Below are positions 10,764 to 17,496 of a DNA stretch of 64,000 nt, piece after piece (the stretch's first letter is position 1; each line of letters opens with the position of its first letter). This DNA is from Halopseudomonas sp. GTDB lineage: Bacteria > Pseudomonadota > Gammaproteobacteria > Pseudomonadales > Balneatricaceae. A program made the position numbers and the translations under genes. The notes beneath the pieces were generated by a model. That model made no database searches, was not told where the DNA came from, and worked only from the letters and a program-made list of their open reading frames with translations. The DNA lies in assembly GCA_036960405.1 (NCBI GenBank), contig JBALWS010000005.1:10137-74136 (forward strand). The letters run 5' to 3'.

Positions 10764-12023
10764 GTGCGCACGACGGTTGCTATCGGCCATCCGCTTGATA
10801 AGCTAGACGCTTATCTTAGTGTCGTCTGGATTCGAGCTGTGCCTGAACGCCTACAACCGTTGCAATACCTGCTACTCCCGTTGATCATTCTTGGCGGGGT
10901 ATATGTTTACCTGCCGCAACTGCCACCGTTTTCATCACCCTGGGAAGAACTGCTGCCCTCGGTACCCTATCTGCTCGGCGGTTTAATCGCGCTGCTCGGG
11001 TGGCACTTCAATAGCGGCCGCAGCCTGCTGGCCTGCATTTTGATTTTGCTCACCAATCTCAGCCTGCGCCAGCCATTCGAGCCGCTGTACCAGCAAACCC
11101 TGCTTGTACTGTTGCCGTTAAACATGGCTCAGATCGCCTGGTACCGAGAGCGAGGGGTGCTCAGCCCGACAGCACTGGTAAGACTGGCCTGGATTGCAGC
11201 CCAGATAGCGGCGGTGACTGCGGCGATCCACTATCATCCAGAGCAATTGCTGCAAGGCCTTAACTTCCACCCGCAGCAGCTTCCTGAGCTACCACTGCCT
11301 TTCGTCGTCCTCAGTACTTTGGCAATTGCAGGGCTGGCGGTTCTAGCCCGACTACTCAGCCAGCAAGATCGATTTGATGCGTACCTACTGATCAGCGTGG
11401 TGGTTAGCTGTGGCCTGATTCTGTTGCCGATACCCCAGCGTGACTTGAGTTTGGTGATATCGGTATTGCTAGCGCTGTGGCTGTTCAGTCTGTTTCGACA
11501 CAGTCATAGCTTGGCTTACCTGGATGATCTGACCGGTCTGCCCGGTCGTCGGGCACTCAACGAACACCTCACACGTCTGGGAAAGCAGCACTGCTTAGCG
11601 ATGCTTGATGTCGACCATTTCAAAAAATTTAACGATAAACATGGCCACGATGTAGGCGACCAAGTACTGAAACTGGTTGCCTCAAAAATCGCCAAGGTAA
11701 GACAAGGTAAAGGTTACCGCTATGGCGGCGAGGAGTTCTGTGTGGTGTTTGCCGGGCGCAAGCTAGAGCAAACCTTGGAACCGCTAGAAGAGCTGCGCCA
11801 AGCAATCGAAGATGCCCGTCTGCAGTTACGCAGTGCCAAACGTCCCCAGAGCAATGATCAAGGTAAAAAACAGCGCGGGACTGCCGGTGCCAAGAGCAGC
11901 AGCGTATCAGTCACGATCAGCATCGGTATCGCCGAACACCAACCCAAGCAGAACACCCTAAAGGCTGCCGACAAAGCGCTCTATAAAGCTAAAGCTGCTG
12001 GTCGTAATAGAGTCTGTCACTGA
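10764..12023 (+). CDS. Membrane-bound diguanylate cyclase (start uncertain)
   Basis: Many TM helices; DDLTGLPGRR, DVDHFKKFNDKHGH, RYGGEEF, ADKALYKAKAAGRN; no RxxD I-site. Confidence 0.92.
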   Translation: MRTTVAIGHPLDKLDAYLSVVWIRAVPERLQPLQYLLLPLIILGGVYVYLPQLPPFSSPWEELLPSVPYLLGGLIALLGWHFNSGRSLLACILILLTNLSLRQPFEPLYQQTLLVLLPLNMAQIAWYRERGVLSPTALVRLAWIAAQIAAVTAAIHYHPEQLLQGLNFHPQQLPELPLPFVVLSTLAIAGLAVLARLLSQQDRFDAYLLISVVVSCGLILLPIPQRDLSLVISVLLALWLFSLFRHSHSLAYLDDLTGLPGRRALNEHLTRLGKQHCLAMLDVDHFKKFNDKHGHDVGDQVLKLVASKIAKVRQGKGYRYGGEEFCVVFAGRKLEQTLEPLEELRQAIEDARLQLRSAKRPQSNDQGKKQRGTAGAKSSSVSVTISIGIAEHQPKQNTLKAADKALYKAKAAGRNRVCH

Positions 12024-12127
12024 AAGGAACCAACGCAAGGAGGACTGATCAAGTATCAATTCAGCGGCGCTGATCATTAACCAATAATAAAGCGATAACG
12101 GCCCTAAGCCGACTTATCTACATCCCT

Positions 12128-12168
12128 AAAAAACAAAACCCCTCACCGGCAGAGCCGATGAGGGGTTT
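12128..12168 (-). terminator. Intrinsic terminator of phasin 2
   Basis: AAACCCCTCA...TGAGGGGTTT stem followed by a T-rich tract on the minus strand. Confidence 0.8.
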
Positions 12169-12188
12169 GGCAAAGAGAAGCTTAGTAA

Positions 12189-12557
12189 TTAAGCAGCTTT
12201 CTTACCAGATACCTTCTCAACTGCAGCTTCAACTTCAGCAGCAGTCTGCTTAGCAGAATCTTCGATTACTGCAGAGAAAGCTTCTTTAGCTTCGGTGAAC
12301 GCAGCAATGCTCTTCTCTGTAGTGTCGGTCATCTTGGCTTCCAGAGCCTTGAAGAACTTAACTTGCAGGTCCATAGCAGCTTTTGGATCTTGGCACTTAG
12401 ACAGAGCTTGGAACTGCTCAAGGCTGGCGTTAACAACGTCAGTCATAGTGTCTTTTTGAACGCCGGCCAGAGTTTCCAGGACCTTTTTGTTGGTCTCAAC
12501 CAGATCCATAACAGGCTTCATGCGAGTGTTCATATCTGCGAATAGATTATCGTACAT
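12189..12557 (-). CDS. phaP: Phasin family protein (PHA granule protein), copy 2
   Basis: Ala/Lys/Glu-rich amphipathic helical 122 aa protein; about two-thirds identical to 12801-13160 by manual alignment; start set at MYDNLF. Confidence 0.78.
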   Translation of the reverse strand: MYDNLFADMNTRMKPVMDLVETNKKVLETLAGVQKDTMTDVVNASLEQFQALSKCQDPKAAMDLQVKFFKALEAKMTDTTEKSIAAFTEAKEAFSAVIEDSAKQTAAEVEAAVEKVSGKKAA

Positions 12558-12639
12558 GGTCATTCCTCTAAGTGTGATAGGTAATATCGAAATCCAGGGT
12601 GGGCACACTACAAGGGTTTCCCAACTCGCCCAGCGACTG

Positions 12640-12650
12640 GTGCGCTGCAC
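12640..12650. promoter_or_regulatory. TGC-N3-GCA palindrome (PhaR-like box) in phasin 2 leader
   Basis: GTGC-GCT-GCAC; near-match half site at 12712-12725 upstream of the -35. Confidence 0.6.
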
Positions 12651-12674
12651 AACTTAGTGCCTACAATTGGGCCT

Positions 12675-12702
12675 ACTATAGCAGTGGCAAACCGACTGTC
12701 AA
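12675..12702 (-). promoter_or_regulatory. sigma70 promoter of phasin 2
   Basis: Minus strand TTGACA-16 bp-TATAGT; hexamers identical to the phasin 1 promoter. Confidence 0.78.
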
Positions 12703-12748
12703 TATCTTTTTCCGCACCGCACAAGAAGTTCTGACAGTTATTTCAAGC

Positions 12749-12782
12749 AAAAAAAATCCCCCGGACCTTAGGGCCAGGGGAT
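12749..12782 (-). terminator. Intrinsic terminator of phasin 1
   Basis: ATCCCC...GGGGAT stem followed by an 8-T run on the minus strand. Confidence 0.8.
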
Positions 12783-12800
12783 CTGTATTCGCGCTTTGGC

Positions 12801-13160
12801 TTACTTGCCAGTCGCTTTCTTAACCGCACCTTCGAATTCAGCAGAAACTTTCTTGCTGGCTTCTTCGACAGAAGATACGTAAGCGTCTTTGGCTTCGCTG
12901 ATCGCTGCGATGCTCTTTTCAGCAGTGTCGGTCATCTTCGCTTCCAGTGCCTTGTAGAAGTTGACCTGCAGCTCCATAGCAGCCTTAGGGTCTTGGCACT
13001 GAGAGACAGCCTTGAACTGCTCCAGGCTAGCGTTAACAACGTCGGTCATGGTCTCTTTCTGAACAGCAGCCAGAGTTTCCATCGCCTTTTTGTTAGTTTC
13101 AGCCAGCTCCAGCACAGGTTGCATGCGAGCTTTCATATCTTCCATAAATTTATCGTACAT
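12801..13160 (-). CDS. phaP: Phasin family protein, copy 1
   Basis: 119 aa paralogue of 12189-12557; same helical Ala/Lys-rich composition. Confidence 0.78.
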   Translation of the reverse strand: MYDKFMEDMKARMQPVLELAETNKKAMETLAAVQKETMTDVVNASLEQFKAVSQCQDPKAAMELQVNFYKALEAKMTDTAEKSIAAISEAKDAYVSSVEEASKKVSAEFEGAVKKATGK

Positions 13161-13191
13161 AACTATTCGCCTTTGCTAGATTAATTTTTAA

Positions 13192-13206
13192 TGCTGCGCT
13201 GCAGCA
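13192..13206. promoter_or_regulatory. PhaR-like palindrome near predicted transcription start of phasin 1
   Basis: TGCTGC-GCT-GCAGCA, contains CTGC-N3-GCAG. Confidence 0.65.
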
Positions 13207-13214
13207 ATGAAACA

Positions 13215-13243
13215 ACTATAGAGGCCTAAATAATAGCTGTCAA
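13215..13243 (-). promoter_or_regulatory. sigma70 promoter of phasin 1
   Basis: Minus strand TTGACA-17 bp-TATAGT. Confidence 0.85.
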
Positions 13244-13245
13244 AC

Positions 13246-13266
13246 ATTTTGTGCAGTGCACAAAAT
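13246..13266. promoter_or_regulatory. 21-bp palindrome (PhaR-like) abutting the -35 of phasin 1
   Basis: ATTTTGTGC-AGT-GCACAAAAT. Confidence 0.65.
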
Positions 13267-13275
13267 CACAACACC

Positions 13276-14199
13276 TCAGCTTGTTTCTTGCTCCTGCCCT
13301 GTTTCATAAAACAGTTCTACCGGGACATCCAGCTGGCTCCTCAACTGTATCGCCAACAGGTCCATCTCCGCATCACTCCAAGGCAATGCCGCGGCCTCAG
13401 TCGGCTGCCTCGCCAAGGTATAGGCCTGAATCTTTTTGAGCTGTACCCTAGCATCGAGTAGTCGTTTCACCAACGCCACATAGCCGGGATAACCGTCGGC
13501 AACATTGTTTTGCGCGCGCCAGTTAAAGAAGCAGGATTGAAACACCAGCGGATATTCACTACCAAACGCGACGATCTTGTCGGTCAAGCGCTCGAACGAC
13601 ACCGAGGTACGGTTGAGCTGCTGCAGCGATTGGGCATCCCAATAATCAAGCTTGCACCAGACTTCACCATTGGCCTGATAAAAAGATGACCAAAGCGGAG
13701 CCAAGTCTTTACGGTCGAGCCCGGTAGCATTGGTGAAAAGCACCAACTTAACCGACTCCGCTAGCTCAAATTCGGCCTTCAGCTCGACCAACAACCGCAA
13801 CACCTGCGGCAATATCCGCACGGTGGTCGGCTCACCATCGCCTGCCAAACCTATATCTCTGAGCGGATAACCCCGATAGCCTTCGGCTGAGATGGAACCC
13901 AACCAATGGCGCAGTTCCTGCTCAAGCTGGACCAACGACGGTTCTACAACGGCCTGATCATCAGTGCGCTCAACCTGGCAGTAAACACAGTCAAAGTTAC
14001 AACGTTTATCCGGATTAAGGTTGATACCCAGCGACAACCCACCCGAACGGCGTGATACCACCGGGTAAACCAAACGGTCAAACTCGCTGAGCCGACTATG
14101 GTTGTCATAGCTCAGGGTAATTTTGGCTTCAAGACTGAGCCCCGGTTCAAGACTACCTTCCAGTTCAAGGCTGTCTTTCACTTCAATCCGATCACTCAT
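13276..14199 (-). CDS. Radical SAM protein of unknown function (COG0731-like)
   Basis: VYPVVSRRSGGLSLGINL followed by CNFDCVYC (CX3CX2C); GDGEPT; LFTNAT; ATGA overlap with pdxJ. Confidence 0.88.
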   Translation of the reverse strand: MSDRIEVKDSLELEGSLEPGLSLEAKITLSYDNHSRLSEFDRLVYPVVSRRSGGLSLGINLNPDKRCNFDCVYCQVERTDDQAVVEPSLVQLEQELRHWLGSISAEGYRGYPLRDIGLAGDGEPTTVRILPQVLRLLVELKAEFELAESVKLVLFTNATGLDRKDLAPLWSSFYQANGEVWCKLDYWDAQSLQQLNRTSVSFERLTDKIVAFGSEYPLVFQSCFFNWRAQNNVADGYPGYVALVKRLLDARVQLKKIQAYTLARQPTEAAALPWSDAEMDLLAIQLRSQLDVPVELFYETGQEQETS

Positions 14200-14972
14200 C
14201 GATCAGCGGCTATCCCAGCCTTAACCAAAATTGTTTTATAGGCTGCCACCGCATCGCCCAGTCCCATCATCAACGCATCGGCGATCAGCGCATGGCCGAT
14301 CGACACTTCAACCAAGCCAGGAATTGTGGCGAGCAAGCCAAGGTTCTCCAGGTTCAGATCATGGCCGGCATTCACCTCGAGCCCGGCAGCTTGCGCACGT
14401 TCTGCCGCTCCCATAAACAGCTCTAACTGCGCCTGCTGCTGATCGGTTCCATAAGCATCGGCATAGGATTCGGTATAGAGCTCAACTCGATCTGCGCCCA
14501 GCGCTGCAGCCAATTCGATATCATCGGAGTCAGCATTCATAAACAAGCTGACTCGAATCCCTCGCGCTTTGAGTTCGTCGATGACCGGCTTAAGTTGCTG
14601 ACCATCTTTTTGCAGATCCCAGCCGTGATCGGATGTCAGTTGGTCCTGCGAATCGGGCACCAACGTACATTGCGCAGGACGAACTTTGCGCACCAACTCC
14701 AAAAAACCCGGGTAGTCGCCGATAGCCCCTTCAAATGGGTTGCCCTCAATATTAAATTCCACCTCCAACATCGCGGCCAATTCATAAACATCAGCGGGAC
14801 GAATATGACGTAGATCGGGGCGCGGGTGGACCGTAATACCATCGGCGCCGTTGGCAATCGCCACTCGGGCCGCTTCGGTAACACTCGGTACACCCGACAA
14901 ACGAGAGTTGCGCATCAACGCAATTTTATTGAGGTTAACGCTTAAAGATGTAGCGGTATTCTGGGTTGGCAT
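14196..14972 (-). CDS. pdxJ: Pyridoxine 5'-phosphate synthase (NK/HD variant clade)
   Basis: LSVNLNKIALMRNSR, GITVHPRPDLRHI, NIEGNP, CTLVPD, RVSLF, ADRVELYT, NAGHDL, VSIGHALI; SD GAGGTG before 14972. Confidence 0.93.
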   Translation of the reverse strand: MPTQNTATSLSVNLNKIALMRNSRLSGVPSVTEAARVAIANGADGITVHPRPDLRHIRPADVYELAAMLEVEFNIEGNPFEGAIGDYPGFLELVRKVRPAQCTLVPDSQDQLTSDHGWDLQKDGQQLKPVIDELKARGIRVSLFMNADSDDIELAAALGADRVELYTESYADAYGTDQQQAQLELFMGAAERAQAAGLEVNAGHDLNLENLGLLATIPGLVEVSIGHALIADALMMGLGDAVAAYKTILVKAGIAADR

Positions 14973-15119
14973 AGGGGGCTCACCTCTTAAATTTACAGTC
15001 TGGATCGTACTGTCCGGCGACATAATTATTAATCGCTATTGTAGGAGTTTTACTACCAATGATCACCTGCTGAACCATTCAATTGTTGATTTAGACCCAC
15101 TCAAACATACGGTAGCGTA

Positions 15120-15148
15120 TTGACAAAATACCCCAATCAAACTAGGAT
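15120..15148 (+). promoter_or_regulatory. sigma70 promoter of isovaleryl-CoA dehydrogenase
   Basis: TTGACA-17 bp-TAGGAT, 44 bp upstream of ATG. Confidence 0.78.
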
Positions 15149-15192
15149 GATTAAAAGAATACCACTCCACTCATTCATCAGGGGTAACACCA

Positions 15193-16359
15193 ATGATTTC
15201 CAGCTACAAAGGCTTCAATTTTGACCTTGGCGAAACCAACGACATGCTGCGCGATCAGATAAACGCCTTTGCCGCCGCAGAGATCGCCCCCCGTGCAGAA
15301 CAGATCGACATAGACAACGAATTCCCGAATGACTTATGGCGCAAGTTTGGCGACATGGGGCTGCTAGGTATCACCGTTCCCGAGGAGTTCGGCGGTGTCG
15401 GGATGGGTTACCTGGCTCATATCATCGCGATGCAGGAGATCAGCCGCGCGTCCGCTTCAGTCGGTCTCTCCTACGGTGCGCACTCAAATCTGTGTGTTAA
15501 CCAGATCAACCGCAACGGCAGCACCGAGCAGAAGCAAAAATACCTGCCTAAGTTGCTCAGTGGTGAGCACGTTGGAGCGCTGGCGATGTCCGAGCCCAAT
15601 GCCGGTTCCGATGTGGTCAGCATGAAGTTGAACGCTCGTGATAACGGTGACCACTACCTGCTCAACGGTAACAAGATGTGGATCACCAACGGTCCCGACG
15701 CCAGCACCTACGTGATCTATGCCAAGACCGATATCAGCAAAGGTCCTCACGGTATCACCGCCTTTATCGTCGAACGCGATGCGCCCGGATTCTCACGCCA
15801 CCAGAAACTCGACAAGCTAGGCATGCGCGGCTCCAACACCTGTGAGCTGGTGTTCCAAGATTGCGTGGTGCCGAAAGAGAATATCCTTGGCCAGCTCAAC
15901 GGTGGCGTCAAAGTCCTGATGAGCGGTTTGGATTATGAACGCGCCGTACTGTCTGGCGGCCCGCTGGGGATCATGGACGCCTGTATGGACCTGGCGGTAC
16001 CTTACATTCGCGATCGTCAACAGTTCGGCAAGGCAATTGGTGAATTCCAGCTGGTACAGGGCAAAATGGCCGATATGTACACCGGCATGAACGCGGCTAA
16101 GTCTTACGTCTATTCGGTAGCACGTGCCTGTGATCGCGGTGAAACCAGCCGTAAAGATGCAGCAGGCGTGATCCTCTATACCGCCGAGCTAGCGACCAAG
16201 ATGGCCCTGGATACCATCCAGCTTCTGGGCGGCAACGGTTATATCAACGAATTCGCCAGCGGCCGCCTGCTGCGCGATGCCAAGCTGTACGAAATCGGTG
16301 CGGGTACCTCGGAGATCCGCCGGATGCTGATCGGCCGCGAGCTATTCATCGGCAACTAA
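15193..16359 (+). CDS. ivd: Isovaleryl-CoA dehydrogenase
   Basis: [60 protein letters not shown]. Confidence 0.95.
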
Positions 16360-16372
16360 GCAACTCCACAAC

Positions 16373-16402
16373 AAAAAGGGCAGCCAAGATCTGCCCTTCT
16401 TT
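16373..16402. terminator. Bidirectional intrinsic terminator between ivd and the cyclase
   Basis: AAGGGCAG-7 nt-CTGCCCTT flanked by A and T tracts. Confidence 0.75.
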
Positions 16403-16434
16403 GTGCCCCAACGTCTCCTGTTAGCGGATAACCG

Positions 16435-17496
16435 CTAGTAGTGCTGGCGACACTCCTCTTCAAGAAAGTACAGATTCATCGTTCCAAATCCTTTTACTTC
16501 GGTCTCGCCTCTTTCACTGCAGACAAAACCATCTTTGATCAGCTCGAAGGTTGCCTCATTAAGAGTGATCCGCATCGGTTCCGACAGACTTTCCATCCTG
16601 GCCGCCAGGTTAACCCCCGGACCGAATAGATCGTAGACGTACTTTTGAATACCTACCAGCGAGCCGATCACGGTACCGGTATTCATCCCGATACGGCAGC
16701 GCCACTGGGTCGGGTGGGCGGCGTTGCGCTTCTCAAGATAGCGCCGCATCCTTAACGCCACCTTGGCGATATTAGCGGTGTGCTCGGTGCTTTCCTGCGG
16801 CACCCCTGAAACCGCCATATAGGCATCACCGATGGTGCGTATCCGCTCGCAACCAAACATCTCGACGATACGGTCGAAGGCAGAAAAGATATCATTGAGC
16901 TCAGACACCAGCGCGCTGGCATCCTGCGAGATCGTCATCTCGGTAAAACGGACAAAATCGAGCATCAGTATCGATGCATTTTCAAACTTCTGCGGGGTCG
17001 TGGTGCCGAAGTCTTTAAGTTCTTCGTAGACCTGCTTGGGCATTACGTTTAGCAACAATCGCTCGACCCGGTCCTTCTCTTTCTCCAACTCCTTGGCATT
17101 TTTCTCCGCCATCCTCGAATAGGAGTCCAGCATGTACTGGCCCTCCTTTTCTTTGGAGATATCCCGGCCCTCTACCAAGATTCGGCTAGCCCCATCGATC
17201 TCCACCGTACGTAACTCGATCCGTACCGGAATCGTCCGCCCTTTAACTGCAGTTTCCGATTCAAAGCTATACCGTCCACGATCGCGAATACGTTGAGTAG
17301 CTTTCTCAGCATCCAAGGATATCAATCGCTGCGGCAACCGCTCCTGTCCTTCATCGAGCAGCGGAAACCAGTCGAAGAAACAGGCGTTCTCAAACAGTAA
17401 CGCCCAGCTATCGAGTTCCACCAGCGCTACCGCGTGACCGATATGCTGCAGCAGTTGTTTGGTATCGATCGATTCATCCATAGTCGTCGCCATCAA
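16435..17496 (-). CDS. Class III adenylate/guanylate cyclase with N-terminal PAS-like domain and coiled coil
   Basis: ILMLDFVRFT (metal Asp), RTIGDAYM, YDLFGPGVNLAARMES; helix LEKEKDRVERLLLNVMP before the catalytic domain. Confidence 0.92.
   Translation of the reverse strand: MMATTMDESIDTKQLLQHIGHAVALVELDSWALLFENACFFDWFPLLDEGQERLPQRLISLDAEKATQRIRDRGRYSFESETAVKGRTIPVRIELRTVEIDGASRILVEGRDISKEKEGQYMLDSYSRMAEKNAKELEKEKDRVERLLLNVMPKQVYEELKDFGTTTPQKFENASILMLDFVRFTEMTISQDASALVSELNDIFSAFDRIVEMFGCERIRTIGDAYMAVSGVPQESTEHTANIAKVALRMRRYLEKRNAAHPTQWRCRIGMNTGTVIGSLVGIQKYVYDLFGPGVNLAARMESLSEPMRITLNEATFELIKDGFVCSERGETEVKGFGTMNLYFLEEECRQHY

What the first reader, a model, noticed from the sequence alone, without database searches (positions are those of the whole stretch)
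13276..14972. pdxJ translationally coupled to an uncharacterised radical SAM enzyme
Seen: ATGA overlap; PdxJ of the VNLNK/GHD type with catalytic-type His/Glu/His positions retained; radical SAM with CX3CX2C and an SRRSGGLSLGINL lead-in. Established: gammaproteobacterial pdxJ usually sits in rnc-era-recO-pdxJ and the DXP-dependent B6 pathway needs no radical SAM enzyme. Inference: a relocated or second pdxJ forming a two-gene pathway for a modified B6 vitamer or an alternative precursor supply; chance adjacency is possible.
Basis: partly seen in the sequence, partly recalled or inferred. Interest (0 to 1): 0.6.

Follow-up and report, generated by a model that had tools for sequence, protein, structure and literature searches.

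The report
Sole pdxJ coupled to orphan radical-SAM gene
In this marine Motiliproteus genome the only vitamin-B6 synthase gene (pdxJ) overlaps by four bases with an uncharacterised radical SAM enzyme gene; the pairing holds across the genus but nowhere else, so it is most likely an ordinary mixed operon and not a new B6 pathway.

Summary
On the minus strand, pdxJ (14196-14972) and a 307-aa radical SAM gene (13276-14199) share an ATGA overlap.

pdxJ is the genome's only copy. It is a divergent 'type-2' PNP synthase with a solved close relative (PDB 6W6A). It has replaced the canonical copy: the rnc-era-recO-acpS locus lacks pdxJ here, while sister genera keep it there. pdxA and a pdxB-type gene are present and pdxS was not found, so the standard DXP-dependent route looks complete.

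The two genes abut (-4 to +5 nt) in 18 of 18 Motiliproteus species genomes that hold both, and in 3 Motiliproteus-like metagenome contigs. No pdxJ lies within 5-6 kb of the radical SAM gene in 150 loci from other lineages. One Motiliproteus species and five other families carry type-2 pdxJ without the radical SAM gene.

Elsewhere the radical SAM family has different tight neighbours in each lineage:
- Verrucomicrobiota: a divergent PLP decarboxylase.
- Holophagae: a PGA_cap protein.
- Planctomycetota: a ~90-aa protein.
- SAR324-like contigs: a TlpA-like redoxin and TatA/B.

Its function is unknown. It has one Fe-S cluster motif and a generic radical SAM fold.

Verdict: a relocated housekeeping pdxJ in a genus-specific mixed operon. 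A PLP-related role for the radical SAM enzyme is a minority possibility. Earlier scan notes had flagged this radical SAM family on other DNA.

The parts
14196..14972 (-). pdxJ, pyridoxine 5'-phosphate synthase. Divergent 'type-2' (VNLNK) subtype and the only copy in the genome.
13276..14199 (-). Uncharacterised radical SAM enzyme, 307 aa, with a single CX3CX2C cluster motif. Residues 1-19 are modelled with low confidence.
14196..14199 (-). ATGA stop/start overlap between pdxJ and the radical SAM gene.
   Evidence: the junction is conserved at -4 to +5 nt in 18 species genomes
13978..14001 (-). Codons for C67-x3-C71-x2-C74, the [4Fe-4S]/SAM motif. These are the only invariant cysteines in the family alignment.
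14981..14986 (-). GAGGTG Shine-Dalgarno sequence, 7 nt upstream of the pdxJ ATG at 14972.
   Evidence: read from the sequence
15038..15066 (-). Putative pdxJ promoter: weak -35 GTGATC (15066-15061), 17-nt spacer, -10 TACAAT (15043-15038). The TACAAT and the G-TGAT core are invariant in 7 Motiliproteus species. The assignment is an inference; the consensus scan did not list it.
   Evidence: alignment
13215..13243 (-). Strong promoter-like site (TTGACA-17-TATAGT) for the downstream phasin gene. It marks the likely 3' limit of the pdxJ-radical SAM unit.

Best explanation
This is a two-gene transcription unit, pdxJ then a radical SAM gene. It probably runs from a conserved promoter-like site about 65 nt upstream of pdxJ. 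The second gene is translationally coupled through the ATGA overlap.

pdxJ is the cell's only PNP synthase. It is a type-2 enzyme that displaced the canonical copy from the rnc-era-recO-pdxJ-acpS operon in the Motiliproteus lineage. It works with the ordinary pdxA/pdxB route.

The radical SAM gene belongs to a widespread, uncharacterised family of about 290 aa with a single [4Fe-4S] cluster. The family occurs in Planctomycetota, Holophagae, some Verrucomicrobiota, SAR324-like bacteria and a few Gammaproteobacteria. It has no fixed genomic partner.

Its position behind pdxJ is a genus-specific arrangement. It compares with pdxJ-acpS in E. coli, where a B6 gene shares an operon with a gene of unrelated function. 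It is not a dedicated B6 pathway.

Shown: gene identities, the overlap, genus-wide synteny, absence of the pairing elsewhere, and the displacement of the canonical pdxJ. Inferred: co-transcription, translational coupling, and the lack of a functional link.
For: 1. Identity and copy number. There is one pdxJ in the genome. NF003626 scores 334 bits. A solved type-2 homologue, 6W6A, matches at E=1e-75.
2. Complete standard route. pdxA is present, a pdxB-type DUF3410 gene is present, and pdxS was not found.
3. Displacement. recO-acpS carries no pdxJ in this genome. Sister genera and other families have type-1 pdxJ (36-42% identity) between recO and acpS.
4. Type-2 pdxJ does not need the radical SAM gene. 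At 45-64% identity it lies in other families behind YciI/IspA or cyclophilin/SH3 genes. Species G004 of the same genus has it without the radical SAM gene.
5. The pair abuts in 18 of 18 Motiliproteus genomes that hold both.
6. The pairing is absent elsewhere. 0 of 73 non-Motiliproteus genome loci have pdxJ within 6 kb. 0 of 77 non-Motiliproteus metagenome loci have it within 5 kb. In rSAM+ Planctomycetota and Acidobacteriota, pdxJ lies 8.5 kb to more than 1 Mb away.
7. Immediate neighbours of the radical SAM gene differ by lineage.
8. pdxJ's persistent synteny with unrelated genes (era, recO, acpS) is documented and called enigmatic in PMC10582724.
Against: - The junction has stayed within -4 to +5 nt over a genus-level divergence (radical SAM protein down to 54% identity). 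This suggests selection for co-expression.
- Two other lineages put a PLP-dependent enzyme directly next to the radical SAM gene: a Verrucomicrobial decarboxylase in 6 loci and a class-V aminotransferase in one Gemmatales locus.
- 48 of 49 rSAM+ Planctomycetota and Acidobacteriota genomes carry pdxJ, against 198 of 253 rSAM- genomes (naive Fisher p=2e-4). This is not corrected for phylogeny.
- The function of the radical SAM enzyme is untested.
Confidence: 0.7

Rival explanations
1. The radical SAM family is functionally tied to PLP. It might use PLP as a cofactor, as lysine 2,3-aminomutase does. It might work in series with PLP-dependent enzymes on an amino-acid-like substrate. Or it might modify or repair a B6 vitamer. 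Under this reading, coupling to the only pdxJ in Motiliproteus reflects that link.
For: - The junction is conserved across the genus.
- In Verrucomicrobiota the radical SAM gene overlaps or abuts (-18 to +17 nt) a divergent Orn/DAP-type PLP decarboxylase. This enzyme is not housekeeping lysA: TIGR01048 scores 97 bits against a cut-off of 298.
- One Gemmatales locus has a class-V aminotransferase 19 nt downstream.
- 48 of 49 rSAM+ genomes in two phyla hold pdxJ.
- K183 is an invariant Lys in the family alignment.
Against: - PLP-related neighbours appear in only 3 lineages. Other lineages have PGA_cap, a ~90-aa protein, TlpA/TatA, or diverse single genes.
- The decarboxylase orthologue was not found in Motiliproteus, Botrimarina, Geothrix or O. 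beijerinckii.
- A paralogous radical SAM group shows the same pdxJ co-occurrence in Planctomycetota (18 of 19). This points to a phylogenetic confound.
- No lysine-aminomutase models match.
- One rSAM+ Acidobacteriota genome had no pdxJ hit, although its assembly is fragmented.
Confidence: 0.17
2. The radical SAM enzyme supplies an alternative precursor to the type-2 PdxJ, such as a replacement for DXP or for 3-amino-1-hydroxyacetone phosphate. The two genes would then form a self-contained pathway.
For: Only the adjacency and the ATGA coupling.
Against: - pdxA and a pdxB-type gene are present.
- Type-2 PdxJ is found without the radical SAM gene in G004 and in five other families.
- The radical SAM family is found far from pdxJ in every other lineage.
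- Type-2 PdxJ keeps the catalytic positions aligned to E. coli.
Confidence: 0.04
3. The radical SAM enzyme is a protein- or RNA-modifying housekeeping enzyme, for example an activase acting on a loop of a small protein. The ~90-aa protein that precedes it in Planctomycetota would then be its substrate or partner. In Motiliproteus it would simply use the pdxJ promoter. This refines the best explanation and is not exclusive of it.
For: - The best structural match is the pyruvate formate-lyase activating enzyme: Z 16.9, 223 of 245 residues, rmsd 3.3.
- A conserved ~90-aa protein with an invariant Gly-containing loop lies 20-200 nt upstream in 18 loci.
- The neighbours elsewhere are varied and look housekeeping.
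Against: - Many radical SAM structures tie within 1-2 Z units (viperin, SuiB, NifB, TYW1), so the fold gives no specificity.
- The small protein was not found in Motiliproteus or in four other rSAM+ genomes.
Confidence: 0.09

Closest known systems
E. coli rnc-era-recO-pdxJ-acpS complex operon (pdxJ co-transcribed with the unrelated acpS)
   Same: A housekeeping pdxJ is followed tightly on the same strand by a gene with no known role in B6 synthesis. Sister genera of Motiliproteus still have this arrangement. The synteny is described as persistent but unexplained in PMC10582724.
   Different: Here pdxJ has left that operon. The downstream gene is a radical SAM enzyme instead of acpS, and recO now overlaps acpS directly.
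Type-2 pyridoxine 5'-phosphate synthase (NCBIfam NF003626; solved structure PDB 6W6A)
   Same: NF003626 scores 334 bits, above its cut-off. 6W6A matches at 257 bits over residues 7-248. Both share the VN(L/V)NK motif and NAGHDL.
   Different: It is only 36-42% identical to the E. coli-type enzyme of its own taxonomic family. E. coli D11/H12 are N/K here. Activity was not tested here.
TYW1 / COG0731 ('wyosine synthetase', the label IMG gives to homologues)
   Same: Radical SAM core of about 290 aa, an N-terminal H-x-R motif, and a structural match to archaeal TYW1 2Z2U (Z 14.8).
   Different: There is no Wyosine_form domain hit. Only three cysteines are invariant, so there is no sign of the auxiliary cluster. 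Bacteria are not known to make wyosine (own knowledge). The label is most likely an over-annotation.
Small single-cluster radical SAM enzymes: PflA activase, viperin, MoaA
   Same: Same partial TIM-barrel fold: PflAE Z 16.9, viperin Z 16.3 and Foldseek E 1e-8. There are weak sequence hits to MoaA and viperin models.
   Different: All family models score far below their cut-offs: MoaA 23.7 against 284, prokaryotic viperin 17.2 against 180, pVip 15.6 bits. The family-specific invariant block YPVxSRRxxGxSxGxNxN is not part of those families.
Lysine 2,3-aminomutase / EpmB (radical SAM enzymes that use PLP)
   Same: A conceptual precedent for a radical SAM-PLP link. Structural similarity is generic (2A5H, Z 14.2).
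   Different: No match to aminomutase family models. PLP binding is untested.

Membership tests
PdxJ (pyridoxine 5'-phosphate synthase) | Matches the curated family models above their cut-offs | tested here: met
   PF03740 287.9 bits (cut-off 24.5); NF003626 334.1 (222); TIGR00559 237.4 (192.75)..
PdxJ (pyridoxine 5'-phosphate synthase) | Catalytic and phosphate-binding positions of E. coli PdxJ (R20, H45, R47, H52, E72, E153, H193-G194, G215-H216; list from own knowledge of the E. coli structures) | tested here: met
   Aligned residues R24, H49, R51, H56, E76, E164, H204-(G203) and G226-H227 are invariant in A6. E. coli D11/H12 are N15/K16, as in the solved type-2 enzyme 6W6A.
PdxJ (pyridoxine 5'-phosphate synthase) | Enzymatic condensation of DXP with 3-amino-1-hydroxyacetone phosphate | not testable with these tools
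   Needs an assay or E. coli delta-pdxJ complementation.
Radical SAM superfamily | CX3CX2C motif binding a [4Fe-4S] cluster | tested here: met
   C67, C71 and C74 are invariant in 25 diverse homologues.
Radical SAM superfamily | Partial (beta/alpha)6 TIM-barrel core with a GGE-like SAM-binding motif | tested here: met
   AF2 model pLDDT 88.7. Z 16.9 to PflAE, with more than 60 chains at Z >= 8. G120-D121-G122-E123-P124 are invariant. The Pfam PF04055 score itself is below its cut-off (19.8 against 29.5).
TYW1 (tRNA 4-demethylwyosine synthase, COG0731) | C-terminal Wyosine_form domain, plus auxiliary-cluster cysteines and a catalytic Lys in the N-terminal region | tested here: not met
   No Pfam hit other than Radical_SAM. 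Only three invariant Cys.
Viperin / prokaryotic pVip | Match to viperin family models above their cut-offs | tested here: not met
   NF038283 17.2 bits against 180. PADLOC pVip 15.6 bits, E 0.002. Structural similarity is generic.
MoaA (GTP 3',8-cyclase) | Match to TIGR02666 above its cut-off, and C-terminal auxiliary-cluster cysteines | tested here: not met
   23.7 bits against 284. No conserved C-terminal Cys.
Dedicated two-gene B6 module (pdxJ + radical SAM) | The pairing recurs in independent lineages | tested here: not met
   The pair is found only in Motiliproteus (18 genomes, 3 metagenome contigs). 0 of 150 other loci have it.
Dedicated two-gene B6 module (pdxJ + radical SAM) | Type-2 pdxJ depends on the presence of the radical SAM gene | tested here: not met
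   G004 (same genus, 95% complete) and G025, G026, G027, G030 and G037 have type-2 pdxJ. No radical SAM homologue was found in them with this query.

The most novel reading that the evidence does not exclude
This orphan radical SAM family is a PLP-linked enzyme: PLP-dependent, acting on a B6 vitamer, or feeding a PLP-dependent partner. It would have been recruited three times next to PLP genes: the sole pdxJ in Motiliproteus, a divergent Orn/DAP-type decarboxylase in Verrucomicrobiota, and a class-V aminotransferase in a Gemmatales genome. It would also be almost confined to genomes that use the PdxJ route.
Probability: 0.12. Interest if true: 0.65.

Novelty: new member of a known kind. Interest (0 to 1): 0.25.

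Why it matters
If the ordinary reading holds, the value is in annotation.
- It records a clean case of xenologous displacement of pdxJ: a type-2 enzyme at a new locus and an emptied recO-acpS slot.
- It warns against reading function into a tight overlap that is confined to one genus.
- It shows that the IMG label 'wyosine synthetase' on this bacterial radical SAM family is unsupported.

The radical SAM family is widespread. It is in about a quarter of sampled Planctomycetota, a tenth of sampled Acidobacteriota, and in SAR324-like and some marine Gammaproteobacteria. It is strongly conserved and has no assigned function. Its lineage-specific partners (PLP decarboxylase, PGA_cap, a ~90-aa protein, TlpA/TatA) give starting points for finding its substrate. 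A PLP link, if real, would add a new radical SAM chemistry to B6 metabolism.

Tried and rejected
- Second pdxJ copy: rejected. There is one hit in the genome.
- Missing pdxA or pdxB: rejected.
- Fused forms of the radical SAM protein (539 aa or longer): none scored. This is weak evidence.
- Sequence and profile search of the PDB: only marginal MoaA hits.
- Foldseek and VIA-align: generic radical SAM fold with many near-ties and no specific family.
- ESM Atlas: only the protein's own unnamed or 'wyosine'-labelled clusters.
- PADLOC: viperin models at noise level.
- Rfam, 12000-16500: nothing credible, so no riboswitch upstream of pdxJ.
- Terminator scan: no convincing terminator after the radical SAM gene.
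- Orthologues in Motiliproteus of the Verrucomicrobial decarboxylase and of the Planctomycetal ~90-aa protein: none found.
- Verrucomicrobiota-level co-occurrence: only 4 of 121 sampled genomes hold the family, too few to test.
- Literature: no paper links pdxJ with a radical SAM enzyme, and no paper in the library combines COG0731 with radical SAM.
- Public sequencing runs: none was listed for this stretch, so co-transcription could not be examined.
- Complex prediction for PdxJ with the radical SAM protein: no verdict.
Neighbourhoods of the closest SAR324-like homologues came from a metagenome scan instead.
Full report
**Observation**

Both genes lie on the minus strand. pdxJ runs 14972->14196 (258 aa). 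The radical SAM gene runs 14199->13276 (307 aa). The + strand reads TCAT at 14196-14199, so the pdxJ TGA stop overlaps the radical SAM ATG as ATGA.

- A GAGGTG Shine-Dalgarno sequence lies 7 nt before the pdxJ ATG at 14972. It favours this start over the upstream ATG at 15023.
- pdxJ scores 287.9 bits on PF03740 and 334 bits on NF003626 (cut-off 222).
- The second protein carries CNFDCVYC at residues 67-74, preceded by SRRSGGLSLGINL. It scores only 19.8 bits on PF04055 and reaches no NCBIfam cut-off.

**What pdxJ is**

The assembly (94% complete, a Motiliproteus by the names attached to its closest protein and locus matches) has a single pdxJ. It also has pdxA on another contig and a pdxB-type gene with the DUF3410 domain. 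No pdxS was found. This pdxJ is therefore the housekeeping PNP synthase of an apparently complete DXP-dependent route.

It is not the usual gammaproteobacterial type.
- It is 36-42% identical to the PdxJ of the other genera in its own family.
- It is 45-64% identical to the PdxJ of several other families in the order.
- A solved enzyme of the same subtype exists (PDB 6W6A, E=1e-75). E. coli PdxJ aligns at E=7e-44.
- The positions aligned with E. coli R20, H45, R47, H52, E72, E153 and H193 are retained and are invariant in an alignment of 27 sequences. E. coli D11/H12 are N/K in this subtype.

The canonical site is empty. On contig C141 the order is lepA-lepB-(126 aa)-rnc-era-recO-acpS-(PALP enzyme)-relA, with recO and acpS overlapping by 4 nt. 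In sister genera and other families the type-1 pdxJ still sits between recO and acpS. The type-2 pdxJ of other families lies elsewhere, as the last gene behind YciI/IspA-like or cyclophilin/SH3 genes.

The simplest history is that a type-2 pdxJ at a new locus replaced the canonical gene. 'Relocated' is right. 'Second copy' is wrong.

**How far the pairing extends**

The radical SAM gene was found in 17 of 19 other Motiliproteus species genomes. It was found in none of 21 genomes from other genera of the family and order.

- In all 18 genomes holding both genes (this one included), the radical SAM start abuts the pdxJ stop: a 4-nt overlap, a 1-nt overlap, or a gap of 1-5 nt. PdxJ ranges over 75-89% identity and the radical SAM protein over 54-82%.
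- Species G004 has the type-2 pdxJ (70% identity) between DUF3014 and GGDEF genes, with no radical SAM gene.
- G001 showed neither gene.

Outside the genus:
- A genome-collection scan returned 80 loci. Seven are Motiliproteus-type and carry the pair. The other 73 come from Oceanospirillum beijerinckii, Oleiphilus, Planctomycetota, Verrucomicrobiota, Holophagae and Nitrospirota. None has pdxJ within 6 kb.
- A metagenome scan seeded with the closer SAR324-like homologues returned 80 more loci. Three have the pair, with radical SAM 60-79% and PdxJ 76-88% identical to the window, so they belong to the Motiliproteus lineage. The other 77 do not have it.

The adjacency therefore traces to a single evolutionary event.

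**What the radical SAM protein is**

Homologues number in the thousands and are about 285-300 aa long.

- Sequence: an alignment of 25 sequences spanning 37-74% identity has 33 invariant columns. These include H34, R36, the block Y45-P-V-x-S49-R-R-x-x-G-x-S-x-G-x-N-x-N62, C67/C71/C74, G120-D-G-E-P124, W181-x-K183-x-D185, Q221, and Y260/R264. There are no further invariant cysteines.
- Structure: the AF2 model is confident (pLDDT 88.7). It matches only the generic radical SAM barrel. PflA activase scores Z 16.9. Viperin, SuiB, NifB, TYW1, MoaA and many others fall within a few Z units.
- Family models: MoaA, viperin, twitch-domain and Tes models all score far below their cut-offs.
- Labelling: IMG labels homologues 'wyosine synthetase'. 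There is no Wyosine_form domain and no sign of an auxiliary cluster, so TYW1 membership fails.
- Fusions: no fused forms were found.

**Neighbourhoods elsewhere**

Immediate same-strand neighbours differ by lineage.

| Lineage | Tight neighbour | Loci |
|---|---|---|
| Verrucomicrobiota | Divergent Orn/DAP-type PLP decarboxylase downstream, overlapping or abutting (lysA model 97 bits against cut-off 298) | 5 genome + 1 metagenome |
| Holophagae | PGA_cap protein downstream | 4 |
| Planctomycetota | Conserved ~90-aa protein of no known family, between ilvC and the radical SAM gene | 5 + 13 |
| SAR324-like contigs | 468-aa protein, then radical SAM, then TlpA-like redoxin, then TatA/B | 2 |
| One Gemmatales locus | Class-V aminotransferase, 19 nt downstream | 1 |

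The remaining neighbours are single, unrelated genes such as polyprenyl synthase, ribonucleotide reductase, malic enzyme and glycosyltransferases. The decarboxylase and the ~90-aa protein have no detectable orthologue in Motiliproteus. Earlier scan notes had flagged the decarboxylase pair, the ilvC-small ORF pair and the TlpA/TatA cluster on other DNA. I reproduced each on independent loci.

**Co-occurrence**

| Phylum sample | rSAM+ with pdxJ | rSAM- with pdxJ |
|---|---|---|
| Planctomycetota (151 genomes) | 35 of 35 | 90 of 116 |
| Acidobacteriota (151 genomes) | 13 of 14 | 108 of 137 |

- rSAM+ in Planctomycetota means a strong orthologue, 190 bits or more.
- The one Acidobacteriota exception is a fragmented assembly.
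- The rSAM- Acidobacteriota count includes the unpublished genome G363. No other claim rests on it.
- Naive Fisher tests give p=5e-4 for Planctomycetota, 0.19 for Acidobacteriota, and 2e-4 pooled.
- These genomes are related, so the tests overstate the association.
- A weaker-scoring paralogous radical SAM group in the same Planctomycetota sample shows nearly the same pattern (18 of 19 with pdxJ). This points to clade structure and not to function.
- In every one of these genomes the two genes are far apart, from 8.5 kb to more than 1 Mb.

**Operon anatomy**

- Upstream of pdxJ, seven Motiliproteus species share an invariant TACAAT (15043-15038, minus strand). A conserved G-TGAT core lies 17 nt further upstream. 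This is a plausible promoter, although the consensus scan did not list it.
- Downstream of the radical SAM stop, a strong TTGACA-17-TATAGT site at 13243-13215 serves the first phasin gene.
- No Rfam element lies in the region.
- The unit is most likely pdxJ plus the radical SAM gene, with possible read-through into the phasin gene.

**Conclusion**

The best-supported reading (about 0.7) is a genus-specific mixed operon. A displaced housekeeping pdxJ is translationally coupled to a member of an orphan radical SAM family, and that enzyme's role is not dedicated to B6 synthesis. This parallels the documented, unexplained synteny of pdxJ with era, recO and acpS (PMC10582724).

A PLP-related function for the radical SAM family stays open at roughly 0.1-0.2. 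The reasons are the Verrucomicrobial decarboxylase pairing, the aminotransferase neighbour and the uncorrected co-occurrence. An alternative-precursor pathway is unlikely, at under 0.05.

Noticed in passing
window 15107-15125 (+): A palindrome, ATACG-N4-CGTAT, runs straight into the TTGACA -35 of the divergent isovaleryl-CoA dehydrogenase gene (15193-16359). The 20-nt block is nearly invariant in seven Motiliproteus species. It may be the operator of a liu/ivd regulator.
   Followed up: partly
G000 contig C141 (locus L126: 4086-5206): recO and acpS overlap by 4 nt with no pdxJ between them. This is the emptied canonical pdxJ slot. Sister genera keep rnc-era-recO-pdxJ-acpS.
   Followed up: yes
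L046:6043-8146; also L033, L050, L054, L070, L166: In Verrucomicrobiota the orthologous radical SAM gene overlaps or abuts a divergent Orn/DAP-type PLP decarboxylase. It keeps the S-x-K-T-Q-P lysine and scores far below the lysA cut-off. This is a conserved two-gene unit of unknown function.
   Followed up: partly
L025:5666-5977, L031:5701-5979 and 16 further loci (alignment A5): A conserved ~90-aa protein of no Pfam or NCBIfam family (PGDRIEV...VKVG...RRRHGLHFRRN...DGELTTVT.DEF) sits between ilvC and the radical SAM gene in Planctomycetota. It is a possible partner or substrate.
   Followed up: partly
L134:3434-6865 and L138:3461-6964: In SAR324-like metagenome contigs the radical SAM gene lies between a 468-aa protein with no Pfam match and a TlpA-like redoxin followed by TatA/B. 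All are on one strand with short gaps.
   Followed up: partly
window 12189-13266 (-): Two tandem phasin genes (PF09361), each with its own TTGACA/TATAGT promoter-like site. The pdxJ-radical SAM-phasin-phasin order is conserved across Motiliproteus loci.
   Followed up: no
G011 (locus L012: 1513-2412): The radical SAM match in this Motiliproteus species comes in two pieces (query residues 21-231 and 229-305) within one 334-aa open frame. This suggests an insertion of about 16 residues and not a break.
   Followed up: no
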